A stretch of 57,325 bases of DNA from a phage: NCBI GenBank assembly GCA_025497365.1, contig GCA_025497365.1_4955.1; one strand, 5' to 3'. The position numbers are program-made. Numbering within the stretch: position 1 is the first letter of the stretch; every line of letters starts with the position of its first letter. Positions 12,001-18,000 of this stretch are shown in pieces.

Positions 12001-15000
12001 AGGTTCAGTACAAGCATTAGGATCTAATGACGCAATACCAAAACCACTACCGTTGCCGTACATACTCACTACTCCTGTTCAGTTGATGGTGAAAGCATAA
12101 CTGCGTATCTGTAATCAGTCAAGAATTATTTTAACACCGTGCAAAAAAACCATCACTGATATAACATACGTTAAGAACCGTAAACCGTATGGAGCCTGTA
12201 GAACATGGCTGATCAACAATTCGAACAACTAGCCGTTGCCGGGTACAGTCGAACAGGCAACCAGGTAAACGACGATTTTCTTCCTAAACTGAATGGTAAA
12301 CAAGGCCGTCGTATTCTTCGTCAGATGGCTGAGAACGACGAAACGATCGGTGGTGTACTGTTTGCTATGAGTAGCGTTTATCGTTCTGTACAGTGGATTT
12401 TTGACCCGTCTGACAAAGATGATCCAGAAGCTATCCGTTATTCAGAATGGTTACAGGATGCTATTGAAAATAAAATGGGTGATCCGCGTGGTGCACTCCC
12501 GGATGATACCTGGTCCGCGTTCGTTCAGACATGGACAGACGTTGATGTATTCGGCTGGGGTTGGTATGACATCTGGGTCAAAGATCTTGATGACGGTACA
12601 GTGGGTATTGCCCGTCTGGTTCCTGTAGCACCTGAAACGCTTGCTGGCTGGGATATTGAAGAACCGACAGGTTATGTTCGTGGTATTTATCAATGTTCAC
12701 CTAATCAGGGTACAACGACGTTAATCACACGTGACCGTTCGCTTCATTTGATTTCAAGTCCGAATAAAGGTAACCCGGAAGGTTTATCACTGCTGCGCAC
12801 AGCTTATCGCCCGTGGTACTACAAAAAAGTGAATATGGAAATCGAATCCATACTTGCCGAACGTGGTACAGGGTTCCCGGTAATTACTGTCAACGCAGAT
12901 ATTAAGAAAGCGGCTAATGATCCTAATGTTCCTGAACAACAGCGTCAGGCAGCACAGGCGATGATTGATGACTATGAAAACATCGTCGCTAATATCAAAC
13001 GCAATGAACAATCAGGACTGGTGATTTATTCTAAACCGTATATCACGGGTTATGATAACGAAACAGGTGTTACTACGTACGGTGGTGAACAACAGGTGAA
13101 ACTGGAATTCGTTACACCTAACCAGACCATTTCTGTGGATATTGACCGGACGATTAAACGCCTGGATACCAGTATTGCCCGTGCGTTACTGGCTGATTTT
13201 TTATTTTTTGGCAGTTCGGGTAATACAAGTAATGGTGCTAACCTGGGTAATCGTACTGAACTGTGGATCCGCGCAATGCAATCACGTATTGACAGCATTG
13301 TAGAATGTGTTAATCGTCAGTTGATACCGCAGTTATGGTCATTAAACGCATTTCCTGATGAATACCGCCCGTCGATTCGCGCCGGGTCGATCAGTAAAGA
13401 CAGTATCGAGACGTTGACCACTGCACTTGCACGACTTGCACAAGCTGGTGCGCCTGTATTCCCGGATCCAGACCTTCAGGAATACGTGTATAAAGAGGCT
13501 GGTCTACCTATTACGGGGATTGATAAAGCCGGGGACGGATTACCGTCTATTGACGACTGAATGAAAAAGGGACCGTTACTGGTCCCTTAATTTTACTTAG
13601 TTTCAGGCTGCACGATTGACAGTAACTTACTCGCTTCATCAACCGCAGTCTGAATACGAGTCTGTAACGGATAACTGTTGTTGATCGCACGTTCCAGCGT
13701 TTTATCAAGCAGTTGCAGTTTGACTTCATCATCGCCAGTGAACGCGTACATGTCAGCGACAACTTCCTTAAACTGTGATGCTTGCTCAACAATAGTCGTG
13801 GTTACAATGTATTTCCAGACTTTGTTAAGTAGTTTAAATTTCACTTCGTTGTCAGCAACTGCATCAACCAGAATTTCAGCAGCAGTCTTGTCATATTTAA
13901 CAAGCTCAAGAATTTCAAAACGCATTTAAGTCTTCTCCTGTCAGTTAACATACTTCGCGATCAGTTTATCACAATCCTCGCGACAGGTAGCATACTTAAA
14001 CAGGTCACTGGCTGCTTCTGCGCGGTAGTCAGTATCAATGGTGTAATGTTCATTAACATAATTATAGGCTGCAAGGTAATTGCTGAACATCCCCGTGGTT
14101 ACCACTTTCGGTTGTTCCCTTACGACCTTACCGTTAAACAGATGTGCGATTAGCAGAATCAGACCACCGATCACAGGACTTGTGAGAAATGCGATAAAGA
14201 ACCATACACCAGGGTTACGACCTGTTTGTTTGGCAACACCCGCGACAACCAGAGAGAAAAGAATATATAAAATAGTGAATAACATGATTGTGTCCTCCTT
14301 TGTTTTGATGTTTGTAGGTTACACGTCCTTGTGTAATCCGTCAAGAATTATTTTAAATTATCGTAGACAGGCGGTAAGCCCATTGCGGCCTGAACAGACC
14401 GTTTTTCGTATTCCTCCCGCAGTTTCTGAAGCTGTTCAATACCGATGTCACAACCACGCATAATATCAGCGCACAGGTCGTTGTAGGTCGCTTCAGATTG
14501 CTTGCAGTGTGGGTAATCAACACAGGATGGATCTGCAATAATGACTTTCGGTAGATACGCGACAGTATCGCCCATTGCGTTTTTAAATATCGTCATAAAT
14601 ACGATCCCACAATTGCAGCACAGTTGACGATCGCTAAACGCGTTGCTTTTTCACGGTCTTCTCCGTGGCTAACTGGTTGCTTATAACTAACGCCAGTGTC
14701 AGGGTTATTAACCGTCACTTCGTTGTCACGAACATCCAGATCCATGTACATGTTAACCATCAGACTGAAAGCATCCTCATTACGTGTAAGAGGGTTCCAC
14801 AGGCGACCATTACCTATATCAATACCTTCGTTTATGTAACGTTCGTCGTACGCGACGTAATATTTACCCTGGATTTCAGCAGCCCGTGCTGCGTTGACTA
14901 ATAAATCACGATTGTTCATCATACCCGTCCTGTTGATCCAAACCCGCCATTACGCTGACTATCAACATCTGGTAATTCTTCCACTTCAACCAGGTTAACA

Positions 15001-18000
15001 GGTTCGACACGTTCAACCATAAGCTGACAAACACGTTCACCGTCTGCGATAGTCTGTAATTTCTGCCCGTGGTTAGTCAGCGTAACGTAGTATTCTTCTT
15101 TGTAATCACGATCACCGATACCCACACAGTTGATCAGTGACAAACCGTGTTTAAGACTCATGCCGGAACGTGGATAGAATTTAATGCAATATCCGCTATC
15201 AACTGACATTTTCAGACCAGTGGGGATCATAGCGCGGTCGCCGGGCCATAATGCGATTGTTCCTGCAACAACCGGACGTTCCACTTTAGCGCCTGATTCC
15301 GTGAATATGGTTACCGATTCTTCCCACAGACAAGCACGAACGTCTAACCCTGCGCTGTCTGGTGTTGCACGTGTCGGAAGTTCAGCGTGGGGTGTTAGTT
15401 TTTTGATATACAGATTAGTCATTGTTTGATTCCTCAGTGTGTTTCGTTCGTGACAAATGTTAGTGTGACCGCTTGCAATGTGTCAAGAATTATTTTAAAC
15501 TTCTGTCAACGTTAACCAATGAGGAACGAATGATGAAACTGGAAGAACTTTTAAAGAAACTGCACAGTGAACAAGGTTTAATTAAAAAGGATTTTTGGTA
15601 TTTTCAAAAAGATAATGGTCATGTCATTCAATCTTTCAATGTACCGTGTCGTATAAACAAAGATGATGTTAATTTTTCTGGAACAGCTGAAAAAAGCATA
15701 TGGAAAGCAGAAGAAATATGTATTGATTTTAAAACCAACTTCTTATATGGGGGAGATGTTATTAATGGTATAACACGCCCCGTTGGTCTATGTCATCCAG
15801 TCAAAACAATAACAATAACAATGACACCATATATAACGGTTACCAATGATGAAATAACAAAATATGAGCAACAGTCATTAGCAGACTTACACCTGACGCA
15901 TCTATTCACCCCTGTTCAACAACCGTCAACAGCGTCTGACTTACTAAAACAGGCTGAACAGCTACTGACAGAACGTGGTAAGCAGTATGACACGTCTGGT
16001 CAGGAACGTTCGTCAGCTAAAATCGTTGCTGCATTTAACACAATTACCGGGCGCGACTTAACACCGGGTGAAGGGTGGTTGTTTCTGATGTTGTTAAAAG
16101 CGGTTCGTTTTTATTCCAACACTGAAACACCACATCGTGACAGTCTGGAAGACCTGATCAGCTATGCTGCATTACACGCAGAGGAATATCTTAACGATGA
16201 ACGGTGAACAGGCATTCGACCTTCTGGTTAAATACGACATTATTATTATTCACTGTGACCGTGAACAGATCGTTTTTACAGACGATCTTCGTTATGAAGA
16301 ACCTTATGATGGTGATAAACGGTCTGCCACGATTCGGTTAATCGAACGTGTGGCACGTGACAGAGGGGAACTATTATAATGGTTCAAACTATTTCTGAAT
16401 TACTACCCACCGTTTATGGCAACGTGACAGAACTTGCCAGGCGGATTGGGTGTAACAAAGCGACAGTTTATAAATATATGGATGACACCAACGGTGAATT
16501 TCACGCAGTGGTGAATGGTAAGTTGATGGTCAGACCCGGTTTTAAAGGACGTTATACTCGTGACAAAAGATGAAAAATTATTACGTGAACTTGAAATAGA
16601 CTACGAACGAGCACAAAAAGCGTTACAGTTTCTGGAAGAACAGATCCGCGAAGTTAAGAACCGCATTCAGGGAACTGAAAAACGTAATCTTCCACGCCCG
16701 TAACACGTGATATAATCGGCCTCAGTGTGTTAACTGAGGCTTTTTTATGGCTACTAAAGATCCATACCCGGATATTTCAGACAAGTATGACGCTCGCATT
16801 CGCGAAGCACTTGACGTCGTGTGGGAAAACGTGCGTCGTAGTGAGTCGTTAGCTAACCTGGAATACATCATTGAAACTCAGGGTATTGCCGGATTACTCC
16901 CCATTCTTGAAACACTACCTGATGAACTTAGTGCACAGTTGCGCCCGGTTATTGAAGATGCGATCGCCGAATCAGGTCGTGTAGTCGTTCAGGTTCTACC
17001 GAAAGCGGCTGTGACAGGTACGGTTGTGTTTAGTCTGGTCACCCCACAGGTCAGCACATATATCAACAACTATGTCGGACAACTGATCCGTGAAGTTAGT
17101 GATGAAACAGTCAAAGCTGTTCAGATTGCAGTTAATCAGGGTGTTGTAACCGGACGAAATCCGCGTCAGATAGCCCGTGATTTTCGATCATCAATAGGGT
17201 TAACCACACGGCAGGAAATGACGGTTCAACGTCTGCGGTCAGCACTGGAAAAAGGTGAAGCAGGTTATGTAAACAGTCTGACAACAGTTACAGACAGTGC
17301 AAAGAATGCTGTAAGTGCCGGGAAACTATCACAGGCGAAGATTGACCAGATAATCGAACAGACACGCTTGCGTTACGTAAAACAGCGTACAGAGACAATA
17401 GCGCGTACTGAATCACTTCGTGCTGTATCAGTTGGTCAGGACCAGGCTATTCGTCAGGGTCAGGTTACGGGGTCGATCAGTAATGAATTATTAAAACGTT
17501 GGTTGTACAGGAAGGATGGTAGGACACGTGACGCGCATATTTCCACGGGTGAAACGAATGGCTGGATACCAATGAACAGACCGTTTTCAACGCCGTTAGG
17601 ACCACTTATGTTCCCTCGTGATCCTAACGGTAGTGCAGCGAATGTGATTAATTGCCGTTGCCGGGTACAGTACAGTTTGCCGGAAGATATAGGTTCATTG
17701 GGTTAATCAGATTCACGCCAGTCAAGAGGTCGCACATCACATAACAAACGAACATTATCTTCAAATTTTATGTTTATCCTGTGATGTGCAGTATCATTTT
17801 CATAAACAGAAGGCCATATTTCATAACCCTGAACAGTTCGTGCCACCCACTTGTTAATGCTTGCCAGATGGATCAACACTTCACAACCAACTGGAGGGAG
17901 GTTTTTACCATCCCAAATCTGTTTCATTCCCATAGTGGTTACTCCTGTTTCTCCCCGCAGAACGGGCAATAAGACATTTTGATGTTGGTTTCAAGGCGTG

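What the first reader, a model, noticed from the sequence alone, without database searches (positions are those of the whole stretch)
13593..16573. Structural module interrupted by opposite-strand inserts, including a dUTPase operon
Portal and head morphogenesis genes are separated by a minus-strand operon (dUTPase and four small genes, with its own promoter copy and a bidirectional terminator) and a short plus-strand set of small genes. Similar opposite-strand inserts occur after the head morphogenesis gene, after the major tail gene and after the chaperone. The genome is therefore a mosaic of a core structural operon and many independently promoted morons.
Basis: partly seen in the sequence, partly recalled or inferred. 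Interest (0 to 1): 0.4.

Follow-up and report, generated by a model that had tools for sequence, protein, structure and literature searches.

The report
Early-gene islands between phage virion genes
The dUTPase gene cluster lying backwards between the portal and head-assembly genes is real, but it is an old, conserved and already annotated feature of the 9NA-like phages, one of several small gene islands that all use copies of one phage promoter, rather than a recently inserted foreign gene.

Summary
The window is an E. coli 9NA-like siphovirus, 98% identical to vB_EcoS_PJ16. Between portal (12205-13560, +) and head-morphogenesis (16747-17706, +) lie five minus-strand genes led by a trimeric dUTPase (13593-15422). 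A plus-strand set follows (DUF6378, a 60-aa ORF, NinH, a 47-aa ORF; 15530-16703).

A covarying hairpin (13567-13588) closes the minus cluster. A second hairpin (16718-16741) closes the plus set.

The "promoter copy" is real: a 23-nt sigma-70-type element (AAAATAATTCTTGACnnATTACA) occurs 14-15 times against 0 expected. It heads every minus-strand island and the replication genes. The dUTPase cluster has two copies.

- The dUTPase island keeps its place and strand in E. coli, Salmonella and Klebsiella relatives; in Proteus relatives the dUTPase itself and the layout are kept. Vibrio relatives keep the layout without dUTPase.
- Its GC content equals the genome average.
- The late genes are not one operon. 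Each block has its own conserved upstream element, mostly of extended -10 type.
- Other islands (26515-26778, 27632-28724, 18761-19172) do turn over like morons.

The layout is already annotated in GenBank and was noted for 9NA in 2014.

Side lead: a structured RNA with strong covariation and no Rfam match at 22.7-23.3 kb.

The parts
12205..13560 (+). Portal gene, the late block upstream of the island
   Evidence: 451-aa ORF. Annotated as portal in PJ16 and 9NA. 99.8% identical to the PJ16 portal. The element CTGATATAACATACGTTAAGAA about 45 nt upstream is identical in 6 genomes.
13567..13588 (.). Bidirectional intrinsic terminator hairpin at the convergent junction between portal and the dUTPase cluster
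   Evidence: Found by the scan on both strands. Folding energy -16.9 / -13.6 kcal/mol, z -5.2 / -4.2. The stem is kept by compensatory changes in Klebsiella phages (GGGACC.. becomes GGGGTCT..). Annotated as a terminator on both strands in the AVIO78A record.
13593..13925 (-). Last gene of the minus cluster, a DUF2560 / phrog_571 protein (110 aa)
   Evidence: Present in E. coli and Salmonella relatives only; a different gene sits at this position in Klebsiella phages.
13941..14285 (-). Small gene (114 aa, phrog_27401) with a hydrophobic N-terminal half; annotated with 3 transmembrane domains in Sasha. First gene of the second sub-unit.
   Evidence: 52-98% identical in all Enterobacterales relatives compared.
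14294..14357 (-). Internal copy of the family promoter with 5'UTR and Shine-Dalgarno site (-35 TTGACG 14344-14339, -10 TAACCT 14321-14316)
   Evidence: 98% identical over 64 nt to the copy at 28733-28796, which heads an unrelated gene. Conserved in AVIO78A, PJ16 and the Klebsiella phages; absent in 9NA.
14348..14922 (-). Two small genes (82 aa and 109 aa), each overlapping its upstream neighbour's stop codon by 4 nt
   Evidence: 65-100% identical in relatives. 4-nt start/stop overlaps at 14919-14922 and 14593-14596.
14919..15422 (-). Trimeric dUTPase, the promoter-proximal gene
   Evidence: PF00692 E=6.5e-19. phrog_135. PDB dUTPases E=7e-25, aligned through the PRSG, G.R.AQL and GGFGSTG motifs.
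15457..15501 (.). Divergent promoter region. The minus-strand family promoter for dut has -35 at 15486-15481 and -10 at 15462-15457. A candidate plus-strand promoter overlaps it: TTGCAA 15473-15478, 17 nt, TAAACT 15496-15501.
   Evidence: 76% identical over 55 nt to the divergent region of the replication module at 47011-47065. Conserved in relatives. The dut promoter is annotated in AVIO78A.
15530..16703 (+). Plus-strand small-gene unit: DUF6378 protein, 60-aa ORF, NinH, 47-aa ORF
   Evidence: Same set in PJ16, AVIO78A and 9NA. The N-terminal part of the DUF6378 gene (15535-15904) is replaced relative to PJ16.
16708..16741 (+). Conserved extended -10-like element TGATATAAT (16708-16716), followed by a hairpin (16718-16741) whose 3' arm carries the GAGG ribosome-binding site of the head-morphogenesis gene
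   Evidence: Hairpin -16.8 kcal/mol, z -3.95. An RNA starting at about 16724 does not fold (-0.9 kcal/mol). Annotated as a terminator in Sasha.
16747..17706 (+). Head-morphogenesis gene (SPP1 gp7 / Mu F-like), the late block downstream of the island
   Evidence: PF04233 and phrog_2468.
17703..18468 (-). Minus-strand island after the head-morphogenesis gene (2-3 small genes) with its promoter copy at 18405-18468
   Evidence: It has 5-6 genes in PJ16 and AVIO78A and 2-3 here.
18754..19172 (+). Plus-strand promoter copy plus a 115-aa ORF, inserted at the ancestral head-block upstream element in the E. coli clade only
   Evidence: alignment; absent in Sasha, 9NA and Carvaje.. Bases 18849-18907 within the ORF are 77-80% complementary to the repeats in the 27632-28543 gene.
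26489..26852 (-). Cassette slot after the major tail gene: terminator 26489-26506, 87-aa gene 26515-26778, promoter copy 26789-26852
   Evidence: The gene is unique to the window among the relatives compared. PJ16 has none, and AVIO78A, Sasha and Carvaje have different genes between the same terminator and promoter.
27624..28796 (-). Island between the tail chaperone and the tape measure gene: bidirectional terminator 27624-27645, T5orf172 + 3xDUF723 endonuclease-like gene 27632-28543, Imm-type superinfection-immunity gene 28545-28724, promoter copy 28733-28796
   Evidence: No gene lies between chaperone and tape measure in AVIO78A, Sasha, 9NA or Carvaje.
894..6099 (-). Largest minus-strand island (about 18 small genes, between small and large terminase), with promoter copies at 1485-1548, 3884-3947 and 6036-6099 and a terminator hairpin at 1554-1573
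   Evidence: Highly variable against relatives.
10171..12135 (-). Minus-strand island upstream of portal (7 genes) with its promoter copy at 12072-12135; the plus-strand terminator 10146-10165 lies just outside it

Best explanation
Region 13567-16741 is a conserved, two-way island of non-structural genes set between the portal and head-morphogenesis genes of a virulent 9NA-like siphovirus.

Leftward units. Host RNA polymerase with sigma-70 starts at a strong phage-family promoter: an AT-rich UP-like tract, TTGAC, a conserved GATTACA, and TAnnnT 17-18 nt downstream. It reads dut and two genes whose start codons overlap the preceding stop. A second copy of the same promoter, 62 nt further on, drives the last two genes. 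Both units stop at the hairpin 13567-13588, which also ends portal transcription coming the other way.

Rightward unit. A promoter overlapping the dut promoter reads the DUF6378, NinH and small ORFs up to the hairpin 16718-16741.

Early regulon. The same 23-nt promoter heads every other minus-strand island in the virion region and also the DNA-replication genes. The islands therefore most likely form one early, nucleotide-metabolism and host-takeover regulon interleaved with the late genes.

Late genes. These are not one operon. The TerS, TerL, portal, head-morphogenesis, head, connector, chaperone and tape-measure blocks each carry their own conserved upstream element. Most are of extended -10 type without a -35.

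Function of the enzyme. The dUTPase hydrolyses dUTP, keeping uracil out of phage DNA and supplying dUMP.

Evolution. The dUTPase island is ancestral core. Several other islands are slots whose gene content is swapped between the conserved promoter and terminator sequences.

Shown: gene content, motifs, conservation, hairpins, turnover. Inferred: promoter activity, early timing, the rightward promoter, the recombination mechanism.
For: Identity and synteny:
- 98% nucleotide identity to PJ16.
- Same layout annotated in PJ16, 9NA, Carvaje, KP13-27, phi_KPN_H2, AVIO78A and Sasha.
- A dUTPase-bearing minus cluster in a Proteus phage, and the layout alone in Vibrio phages.
- Gene-by-gene conservation matrix.

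Promoter family:
- 14 matches against 0 expected.
- 15 exact AATTCTTGAC cores, all with TAnnnT at 17-18 nt.
- At the head of every minus island, and at 46985/47048 (minus strand) and 51837/54282 (plus strand) in the replication half.
- Same motif at the same junctions in all Enterobacterales relatives; only the core TTGACAGATTRCA in Proteus.

Terminators: with covariation.

Late-block elements identical across 6 genomes while flanks diverge:
- Portal: CTGATATAACATACGTTAAGAA.
- TerL: GTGGTAAACTGTACAGAAC.
- Head-morphogenesis: GTGATAYAAT plus hairpin.
- Connector: CGTGnTAnAAT, after a terminator.
- Head block: CCCGTGGTTAACT.
- Tape measure: GTTAAACT.

Other points:
- No phage RNA polymerase is annotated in PJ16 or 9NA.
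- GC of the dut island equals the genome mean.
- dUTPase motifs are present.
- Similarity breakpoints against three relatives fall within 40 nt of promoter or terminator elements in 27 of 74 cases. Random positions give 5.1 +/- 2.1. Random gene boundaries give 15.0 +/- 3.4 (P=0.0016). After merging shared breakpoints the count is 14 of 47, against 17% expected (P=0.022).
- Casjens et al. 2014 already report many small genes interspersed among canonically ordered virion genes.
Against: - No transcription data exist for any 9NA-like phage in the library searched, so early and late timing and all promoter activities are inferred from sequence.
- The generic sigma-70 scan finds no more sites than in shuffled sequence (17 vs 17.5). 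The argument rests on the repeated, conserved motif, not on consensus matching.
- One plus-strand copy (18761) heads the head-gene block in the E. coli clade, so the motif is not strictly an 'early-gene only' mark.
- The plus-strand U-tract of the 13567-13588 hairpin is weak (UUAAUUUU).
- The breakpoint enrichment is modest once gene boundaries are used as the null, and relatives share ancestry.
- The key comparative paper (Zeng et al. 2019, J Virol) could not be read.
Confidence: 0.75

Rival explanations
1. One reading: the dUTPase cluster and the other inserts are morons. That is, foreign, independently acquired transcription units dropped into a single late structural operon.
For: - Each island has a promoter copy and most have a terminator.
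- Several islands differ between phages that are 96-98% identical.
- The Imm gene falls in the PHROG category 'moron, auxiliary metabolic gene and host takeover'.
- A 64-nt promoter+5'UTR is duplicated at 98% identity in front of two unrelated genes.
- A promoter+ORF cassette is inserted in the E. coli clade only.
Against: - The dUTPase island is present, in place and in orientation, in all Enterobacterales relatives compared, with dUTPase also in Proteus phages.
- Its GC content is that of the genome.
- Its promoter is the phage's own family promoter, shared with the replication genes.
- The phage type is virulent, so expression from a repressed prophage does not apply.
- The late genes carry separate conserved upstream elements and internal terminators, so there is no single operon to interrupt.
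Confidence: 0.2
2. The opposite-strand placement is itself regulatory. Early transcription converging on late genes gives antisense RNA or polymerase collisions that hold late genes down until the early promoters are shut off. The bidirectional terminators tune the amount of read-through.
For: - Convergent junctions with terminators that are imperfect on one strand. The plus side of 13567-13588 has a weak U-tract, and 26489-26506 is a terminator on the plus strand only.
- The strand arrangement is conserved down to Vibrio relatives although the gene content changes.
Against: - Stable hairpins sit at the convergent junctions examined.
- Most early promoters lie at divergent junctions and fire away from the adjacent late gene.
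- No direct evidence.
Confidence: 0.1
3. The minus-strand ORFs are chance ORFs or annotation artefacts, or the result of a recent inversion in this isolate.
For: Small ORFs of 47-114 aa are easy to over-call.
Against: - Pfam and PHROG hits for nearly all of them.
- Amino-acid conservation at 52-100% across genera on the same strand.
- 4-nt start/stop overlaps between consecutive genes and Shine-Dalgarno-like sequences ahead of the chosen starts.
- The same orientation in every relative.
Confidence: 0.01

Closest known systems
Salmonella phage 9NA and the 9NA-like phages (Nonanavirus / Sashavirus; Casjens et al. 2014, PMC4153490; GenBank KJ802832, MZ726797, OQ955832, KX987158)
   Same: - Same genes in the same order and on the same strands.
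[quoted passage not shown]
- The AVIO78A record annotates the dut promoter and the bidirectional terminator after portal.
   Different: This isolate differs only in cassette content:
- a unique 87-aa gene at 26515-26778;
- a longer T5orf172 gene than in PJ16;
- fewer genes after the head-morphogenesis gene;
- a different tail fibre.

I found no published account of the genome-wide promoter family or of the late-block elements in the library searched. Zeng et al. 2019 could not be read.
PeSLs (promoter-early stem-loops) of T4-like phages (Arbiol et al. 2010, PMC2839356; Comeau et al. 2014, PMC4122927)
   Same: - Many copies of one strong sigma-70-like early promoter, and stem-loop terminators, flank small non-essential genes.
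- Differences between close relatives tend to begin and end at these elements.
- Composite terminator-then-promoter pairs exist at 1554-1573/1540 and 7932-7953/7963.
   Different: - Here the host is a siphovirus of 57 kb.
- The islands sit antisense between individual virion genes rather than in separate hyperplastic regions.
- Promoter and terminator are mostly at opposite ends of an island rather than fused.
- The breakpoint enrichment is modest (P=0.0016-0.02).
- Mini-circles were not tested.
Morons of lambdoid phages (term of Hendrix and colleagues for HK97/HK022; from my own knowledge, not checked in a paper here)
   Same: A gene or genes with their own promoter and terminator lying between two virion genes. 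This holds for 26515-26778, 27632-28724 and 18761-19172.
   Different: - The dUTPase island is not absent from any close relative, has no deviant composition and uses a phage-wide promoter.
- The phage is virulent, so there is no prophage state in which a moron would be expressed.
Phage-encoded trimeric dUTPases
   Same: Same fold family and catalytic motifs.
   Different: A roughly 20-residue N-terminal insertion relative to E. coli Dut. No further role, such as signalling as in staphylococcal phages, was tested.

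Membership tests
Moron (own transcription unit inserted between two genes of a phage) | The unit is absent from related phages, in which the flanking genes are adjacent | tested here: not met
   dUTPase island: present between portal and head-morphogenesis genes in all 7 Enterobacterales relatives examined and in Proteus RS10pmA. The feature is met instead for 26515-26778, 27632-28724 and 18761-19172.
Moron (own transcription unit inserted between two genes of a phage) | Own promoter and own terminator | tested here: met
   By sequence only: promoter copies, and a hairpin with U-run and covariation. 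Activity not measured.
Moron (own transcription unit inserted between two genes of a phage) | Base composition different from the surrounding genome | tested here: not met
   dUTPase island GC 0.442 against 0.436 for the genome. Other islands are lower (0.37-0.42).
Moron (own transcription unit inserted between two genes of a phage) | Expressed from the repressed prophage | not testable with these tools
   9NA-type phages are reported as virulent with no lysogeny genes, so the criterion has no meaning here.
9NA-like phages (Nonanavirus/Sashavirus) | High nucleotide identity and shared gene order with type members | tested here: met
   96-98% identity to PJ16, PDP46, AVIO78A and Bas82; 82-84% to 9NA and Sasha over 12000-18000. 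Colinear over the whole window.
PeSL-type regulatory cassettes | Many copies of one strong sigma-70-like early promoter next to small accessory genes | tested here: met
   14 matches against 0 expected; 15 exact cores. Strength and timing not measured.
PeSL-type regulatory cassettes | Promoter fused to a stem-loop terminator as one composite element | tested here: inconclusive
   Composite pairs occur only at 1554-1573/1540 and 7932-7953/7963. Elsewhere promoter and terminator lie at opposite ends of an island.
PeSL-type regulatory cassettes | Insertions, deletions and replacements between close relatives begin and end at the elements | tested here: met
   27 of 74 breakpoints lie within 40 nt of an element. 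Random positions give 5.1 +/- 2.1 and random gene boundaries 15.0 +/- 3.4, P=0.0016. After merging, 14 of 47 unique breakpoints against 17% expected, P=0.022. Modest effect; relatives are not independent.
PeSL-type regulatory cassettes | Excised mini-circles formed by recombination between elements | not testable with these tools
   Needs PCR or read-level data from infected cells.
Trimeric dUTPase | Conserved motifs of the family, including the C-terminal GGFGSTG arm | tested here: met
   PF00692 above its cut-off (68.4 vs 22 bits). Alignment to PDB 8y1q through PRSG, D.DY, G.R.AQL and GGFGSTG.
Bidirectional intrinsic terminator | GC-rich hairpin flanked by an A-run and a T-run so that both strands give hairpin plus U-tract | tested here: met
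   AAAAAGGGACCGTTACTGGTCCCTTAATTTT. Both strands fold. The U-tract is good on the minus strand (UUUUUCAUUC) and weaker on the plus strand. Compensatory stem changes in relatives.

The most novel reading that the evidence does not exclude
The 23-nt promoter (UP-like tract, TTGAC, conserved GATTACA) and the recurring hairpin terminators do two jobs at once in a siphovirus.

First, they define an early regulon whose units are threaded antisense between individually promoted late genes. The early-to-late switch would then work by disabling -35/UP-dependent initiation, with a phage factor acting on sigma-70 region 4 in the manner of T4 AsiA or the Thermus phage P23-45 proteins. The extended -10-type late promoters would be left active.

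Second, they serve as portable homology for swapping gene cassettes between phages, as PeSLs do in T4-like phages.
Probability: 0.3. Interest if true: 0.5.

Novelty: already known. Interest (0 to 1): 0.27.

Why it matters
As posed, the finding adds little. The interrupted virion module is a described hallmark of 9NA-like phages, and the dUTPase cluster, its promoter and its terminator are annotated in near-identical GenBank records.

What may be useful is the regulatory map that comes out of checking it:
- One promoter family ties all the small-gene islands to the replication genes.
- Each virion block has its own conserved late-type element.
- Fixed promoter and terminator boundaries enclose cassettes that turn over.

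This gives direct, cheap predictions for the first transcriptome of this little-studied phage group, which includes BASEL phage Bas82. It also marks safe positions for engineering.

The side observation may deserve more attention than the finding itself. A widely distributed, covarying structured RNA lies at 22.7-23.3 kb and has no Rfam match. In some other phages it sits downstream of a tmRNA-like tag reading frame.

Tried and rejected
- Generic sigma-70 and terminator scans alone are uninformative: 17 promoter-like sites against 17.5 in shuffles.
- Rfam at gathering threshold and ARAGORN on the whole window found nothing.
- The PADLOC defence models gave nothing meaningful for the island proteins: a weak HTH-type hit for NinH and weak PDC-S57 hits (E about 1e-6) for the T5orf172 endonuclease-like protein.
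- The two genes behind the 98%-identical promoter copies are unrelated, so that duplication is of the regulatory cassette only.
- A common late-promoter word CCGTGnTWAACT has only 2 exact sites (TerL, tape measure). The 1-mismatch hits lie in coding sequence, so I do not claim a single late consensus.
- TACAGAAC is enriched (9 against 2.1 expected) and lies in conserved upstream elements of TerL and the chaperone gene. Its position relative to the hexamers is inconsistent, so I left it unexplained.
- Zeng et al. 2019 (PMC6819911) is not held. Searches for promoter or transcript studies of 9NA-like phages found none.
- For the side RNA, sensitive Rfam searches gave only sub-threshold tmRNA hits, in other phages and not in the window. 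No paper contained its sequences or tag peptides. ARAGORN calls no tmRNA.
- One paper search failed on syntax.

Full report
WHAT THE WINDOW IS. Megablast of 12000-18000 finds 24 phage records. The best are Escherichia phages vB_EcoS_PJ16 (98.2%), PDP46, AVIO78A and KarinMuster_Bas82 (96-97%). Next come Salmonella phages 9NA, Sasha, Sergei and Solent (82-84%), and then Klebsiella phages. The whole window is colinear with PJ16 and 9NA. It is therefore a member of the 9NA-like siphoviruses (Nonanavirus/Sashavirus). Casjens et al. 2014 describe 9NA itself as virulent and headful-packaging.

THE OBSERVATION.

Portal (12205-13560, +) is followed by five minus-strand genes:
- dUTPase, 14919-15422. 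PF00692 E=6.5e-19. PDB dUTPases down to E=7e-25 with the family motifs.
- Two genes overlapping their upstream neighbours by 4 nt: 14593-14922 and 14348-14596.
- After a 62-nt gap, a 114-aa protein with a hydrophobic N-terminal half (13941-14285) and a DUF2560 protein (13593-13925).

On the plus strand follow a DUF6378 protein (15530-16207), a 60-aa ORF, NinH (16379-16573) and a 47-aa ORF (16560-16703). Then comes the head-morphogenesis gene (16747-17706, Mu F/SPP1 gp7 family).

The hairpin 13567-13588 lies in the 32-nt gap between the convergent stop codons. It folds on both strands (-16.9 and -13.6 kcal/mol; z -5.2 and -4.2). It keeps its stem through compensatory changes in Klebsiella relatives.

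So are two larger ones, 894-6024 and 10171-12063.

THE PROMOTER COPY. A repeat search and a pattern search show that the promoter upstream of dut belongs to a family. AAAATAATTCTTGACnnATTACA has 14 matches with up to 3 mismatches, against 0.00 expected. The exact core AATTCTTGAC occurs 15 times.
- Each copy has TTGACn, and 17-18 nt further on a TAnnnT hexamer.
- Each is preceded by an AT-rich tract like an UP element.
- Minus-strand copies head every minus-strand island: 1540, 3939, 6091, 12127, 14349, 15491, 18460, 26844, 28788.
- Two more minus-strand copies head the leftward replication genes (46985, 47048).
- Plus-strand copies stand at 7963, 18761, 51837 and 54282.

The dUTPase cluster has two copies. 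One lies before dut and one in the 62-nt gap before 13941-14285, so it is two nested units rather than one operon.

The same motif stands at the same junctions in 9NA, PJ16, AVIO78A, Sasha, Carvaje, KP13-27 and phi_KPN_H2. Only its core TTGACAGATTRCA is kept in a Proteus relative.

IS THE ISLAND AN INSERT? Portal, then a minus cluster ending in dut, then plus small genes, then head-morphogenesis, then another minus cluster: this order is found in PJ16, AVIO78A, Sasha, 9NA, Carvaje, KP13-27 and phi_KPN_H2.
- A tblastn matrix shows dut at 67-99% identity, the 109-aa gene at 65-100%, the 82-aa gene at 69-99% and the 114-aa gene at 52-98%. All lie on the minus strand in all of them.
- Only the DUF2560 gene is limited to the E. 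coli and Salmonella members.
- Proteus phage RS10pmA (portal 61% identical) has a minus cluster with a dUTPase and a dCMP deaminase at the same place.
- Vibrio phages (portal 42%) keep the strand pattern without a dUTPase.
- The island's GC content (0.442) is that of the genome (0.436), whereas other islands are lower (0.37-0.42).

So this island is ancestral and part of the group's core. It is not a moron.

WHICH ISLANDS DO TURN OVER.
- Against PJ16 (98% identical), the differences are concentrated in the islands: 887-1469, 4193-6108, 17933, 26515-26857 and 28.2-28.3 kb.
- The gene 26515-26778 is unique to the window. PJ16 has nothing there, and AVIO78A, Sasha and Carvaje have three different genes between the same terminator and promoter.
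- The island 27632-28724 carries an Imm-type superinfection-immunity gene (PF14373). It also carries a T5orf172 endonuclease-like gene with three DUF723 repeats. AVIO78A, Sasha, 9NA and Carvaje have no gene between chaperone and tape measure.
- In the E. coli clade a promoter copy plus a 115-aa ORF (18754-19172) has been inserted exactly at the ancestral head-block upstream element.
- The promoter+5'UTR at 14294-14357 is 98% identical over 64 nt to that at 28733-28796, although the genes behind them are unrelated.

Breakpoints of similarity to PJ16, AVIO78A and Sasha lie within 40 nt of a promoter copy or terminator in 27 of 74 cases. Random positions give 5.1 +/- 2.1. Random gene boundaries give 15.0 +/- 3.4 (P=0.0016). 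After merging shared breakpoints the count is 14 of 47, against 17% expected (P=0.022).

This resembles the PeSL cassettes of T4-like phages, with a modest effect size.

THE LATE GENES ARE NOT ONE OPERON. Alignments of upstream regions from six genomes show short blocks that are identical while their flanks diverge:
- Portal: CTGATATAACATACGTTAAGAA.
- TerL: GTGGTAAACTGTACAGAAC, present even in PJ16, where the neighbouring early promoter is missing.
- Head-morphogenesis: GTGATAYAAT.
- Connector block: CGTGnTAnAAT, directly after terminator 23270-23288.
- Head block in Sasha, 9NA and Carvaje: CCCGTGGTTAACT.
- Tape measure: GTTAAACT.
- Chaperone: TTGCGYAATTYGTACAGAACTATTA.

Most read as extended -10 elements (TGnTAnnnT) without a -35. 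Terminators follow TerL, the plus genes after it, portal, the major capsid gene, the major tail gene and the chaperone.

Upstream of the head-morphogenesis gene, the -10-like element ends 1 nt before a conserved hairpin whose 3' arm holds the GAGG ribosome-binding site. An RNA starting about 7 nt after the -10 would lack the 5' arm and does not fold (-0.9 kcal/mol, against -16.8 for the full hairpin). Read-through from the upstream unit would thus be stopped or masked, while the gene's own transcript is free. This is inference from sequence.

MECHANISM PROPOSED. No phage RNA polymerase is annotated in PJ16 or 9NA, so the host enzyme probably serves throughout.

The promoter family, with a good -35 and an UP-like tract, heads the replication and nucleotide-metabolism genes. 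These are early or middle functions in virulent phages (established knowledge). I therefore read all units it drives, including the dUTPase island, as one early regulon.

The divergent region 15454-15508 is 76% identical to the divergent region of the replication module at 47011-47065. Both contain TTGCAA-17-TAAACT on the plus strand. This is the only candidate promoter for the rightward helicase and primase genes. By analogy it is also the candidate for the DUF6378-NinH unit.

The whole segment 13567-16741 is then a two-way early island bounded by two terminators. How early promoters are turned off and the -35-less late elements turned on is unknown. A factor that blocks -35 recognition is a possibility, not a finding.

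WHAT IS KNOWN.
- Casjens et al. [quoted passage not shown]
- The AVIO78A record annotates the dut promoter and the two-strand terminator after portal. The Sasha record annotates terminators at the same sites.
- The BASEL paper treats Bas82 as a rarely reported Nonanavirus.
- I found no study of transcription in this group and could not read Zeng et al. 2019.

As a finding, the interrupted module is already known. The interpretation as morons is right for some islands and wrong for the one it was built on.

SIDE OBSERVATION, OUTSIDE THE FINDING.

Location and signals. The 640-nt ORF-poor gap at 22695-23334 has a sigma-70-like promoter (TTGACA-17-TATTGT, 22674-22702) and a terminator (23270-23288). 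It folds far better than shuffles (-216 vs -177 +/- 6.7 kcal/mol, z -5.8).

Conserved core. It consists of:
- P1: 22850-22858 paired with 23059-23067.
- Hairpin P2: 22862-22877.
- A variable arm of 162 nt.
- Hairpin P4: 23040-23058.

The P2 loop GCUGA is complementary to the P4 loop UCAGC.

Distribution. The 20-mer spanning P2 occurs in at least 120 IMG/VR contigs. A 22-mer version occurs in 115 species-representative genomes, mostly Gamma- and Betaproteobacteria. The P4 block lies 37-167 nt downstream in 102 of 120.

Covariation. On 65 distinct sequences, 94.7% of cells pair, against 25-51% when the partners are slid. There are 88 double changes against 25 +/- 4 in shuffles (0 of 500). P1 and P4 carry the covariation, and about 40 G-U cells indicate an RNA on the plus strand.

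Context.
- tRNA genes lie within 800 nt of 30 of 239 elements, and 28 of those are co-oriented.
- In 16 of 239 a tmRNA-like tag frame lies upstream, for example AUAAAU GCA AAC GAU ... encoding ANDDVVLMAA or ANEEMYLAVA. These include the HK620 late leader and Klebsiella phage Magnus. Rfam tmRNA hits there are sub-threshold.
- The window's copy has no such frame.
- Bases 22837-23073 are 100% identical to an unannotated segment in 119 of 5426 complete E. coli genomes. They are 99.6% identical to the Q-S leader of P22-like phage CUS-3. Sasha-type relatives carry a reduced core, which points to recent exchange with resident prophages.
- There is no Rfam family match and no paper with these sequences.

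Its function is unknown.

VERDICT. Observation confirmed. Interpretation partly supported. The feature is already known and of low interest as posed. The regulatory map is a modest addition, and the RNA is a separate lead.

Noticed in passing
window 22674-23295 (+); core P1 22850-22858/23059-23067, P2 22862-22877, P4 23040-23058: An ORF-poor gap with its own promoter and terminator holds a structured RNA (z = -5.8) that has no Rfam match.
- Its four-way core shows strong covariation in P1 and P4: 88 double changes against 25 in shuffles, 0 of 500.
- Its 20-mer occurs in at least 120 viral contigs; a 22-mer version occurs in 115 bacterial species.
- It is often co-oriented with tRNA genes.
- In 16 of 239 cases (including the HK620 late leader) it lies downstream of a tmRNA-like tag frame such as ANDDVVLMAA. 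The window copy lacks the tag.
- Bases 22837-23073 are 100% identical to an unannotated segment in 119 E. coli genomes.
   Followed up: partly
window 18470-18750: An AT-rich (GC 0.32) non-coding stretch of about 300 nt between two oppositely oriented promoter copies. Parts are conserved in E. coli, Salmonella and Klebsiella relatives (TTTTTAAC..CTCTATCTTATT..TTATTAT..), and it holds short iterated words (ATAGAT, ATAAACAT, GTAGTATAA). In the E. coli clade it also has two copies of GCAGCTAATACAGAACGTGTAYTA. It could be an origin of replication or another regulatory region.
   Followed up: no
window 6133, 18480, 18543, 26869, 52071 (+) and others: The word TACAGAAC occurs 9 times against 2.1 expected. 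Five copies lie in plus-strand upstream regions, including the fully conserved elements before TerL and the chaperone gene. It also lies in the spacer of the Klebsiella-phage dut promoter. Possibly a regulator site.
   Followed up: partly
window 27632-28543 (-) and 18849-18907 (+): A T5orf172 endonuclease-like gene with three DUF723 repeats of about 150 nt. A 59%-identical relative sits after TerL in Sasha. A fragment 77-80% complementary to the repeats lies inside the ORF 18825-19172. It looks like a mobile homing-endonuclease-type gene that has moved within this phage group.
   Followed up: partly
window 44200-44445 (-), inside gene 44086-45015: Twelve overlapping copies of an 18+12-nt periodic repeat (GGTGCTGCCGCTGGTGTAGGCGCTGCTACA). 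Read on the minus strand it should encode an Ala/Pro/Thr-rich stretch in a replication-module protein; I did not translate it. The gene length differs between the window, PJ16 and 9NA.
   Followed up: no
window 11192-11226 and 11891-11925: An exact 35-nt direct repeat (CGTTTTTTAGTGTGACCAGCAGCAATTAAGCGTTT) inside two different small minus-strand genes of the island upstream of portal. Possibly a trace of recombination or a shared peptide end.
   Followed up: no
window 14316-14339, 28755-28778, 1507-1530: In a subset of the promoter copies, the conserved TTACAC after the -35 is matched by an inverted GTGTAA that forms the -10 (TTACAC-N6-GTGTAA). This is a short palindrome of the kind bound by dimeric repressors. 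Other copies lack it.
   Followed up: no
L003 (PJ16) 17577 (-) and 17897 (+): In PJ16 the two facing promoter copies share their downstream sequence as well (..ACACCGACACAAnTACCCTGTGGTTAA). They form a long inverted duplication that the window lacks.
   Followed up: no
L012 (Carvaje) 20299-20383: Klebsiella phage Carvaje carries a tRNA-Ser in the same slot, between the gene after the major capsid gene and the connector genes, where the window carries the structured RNA.
   Followed up: no
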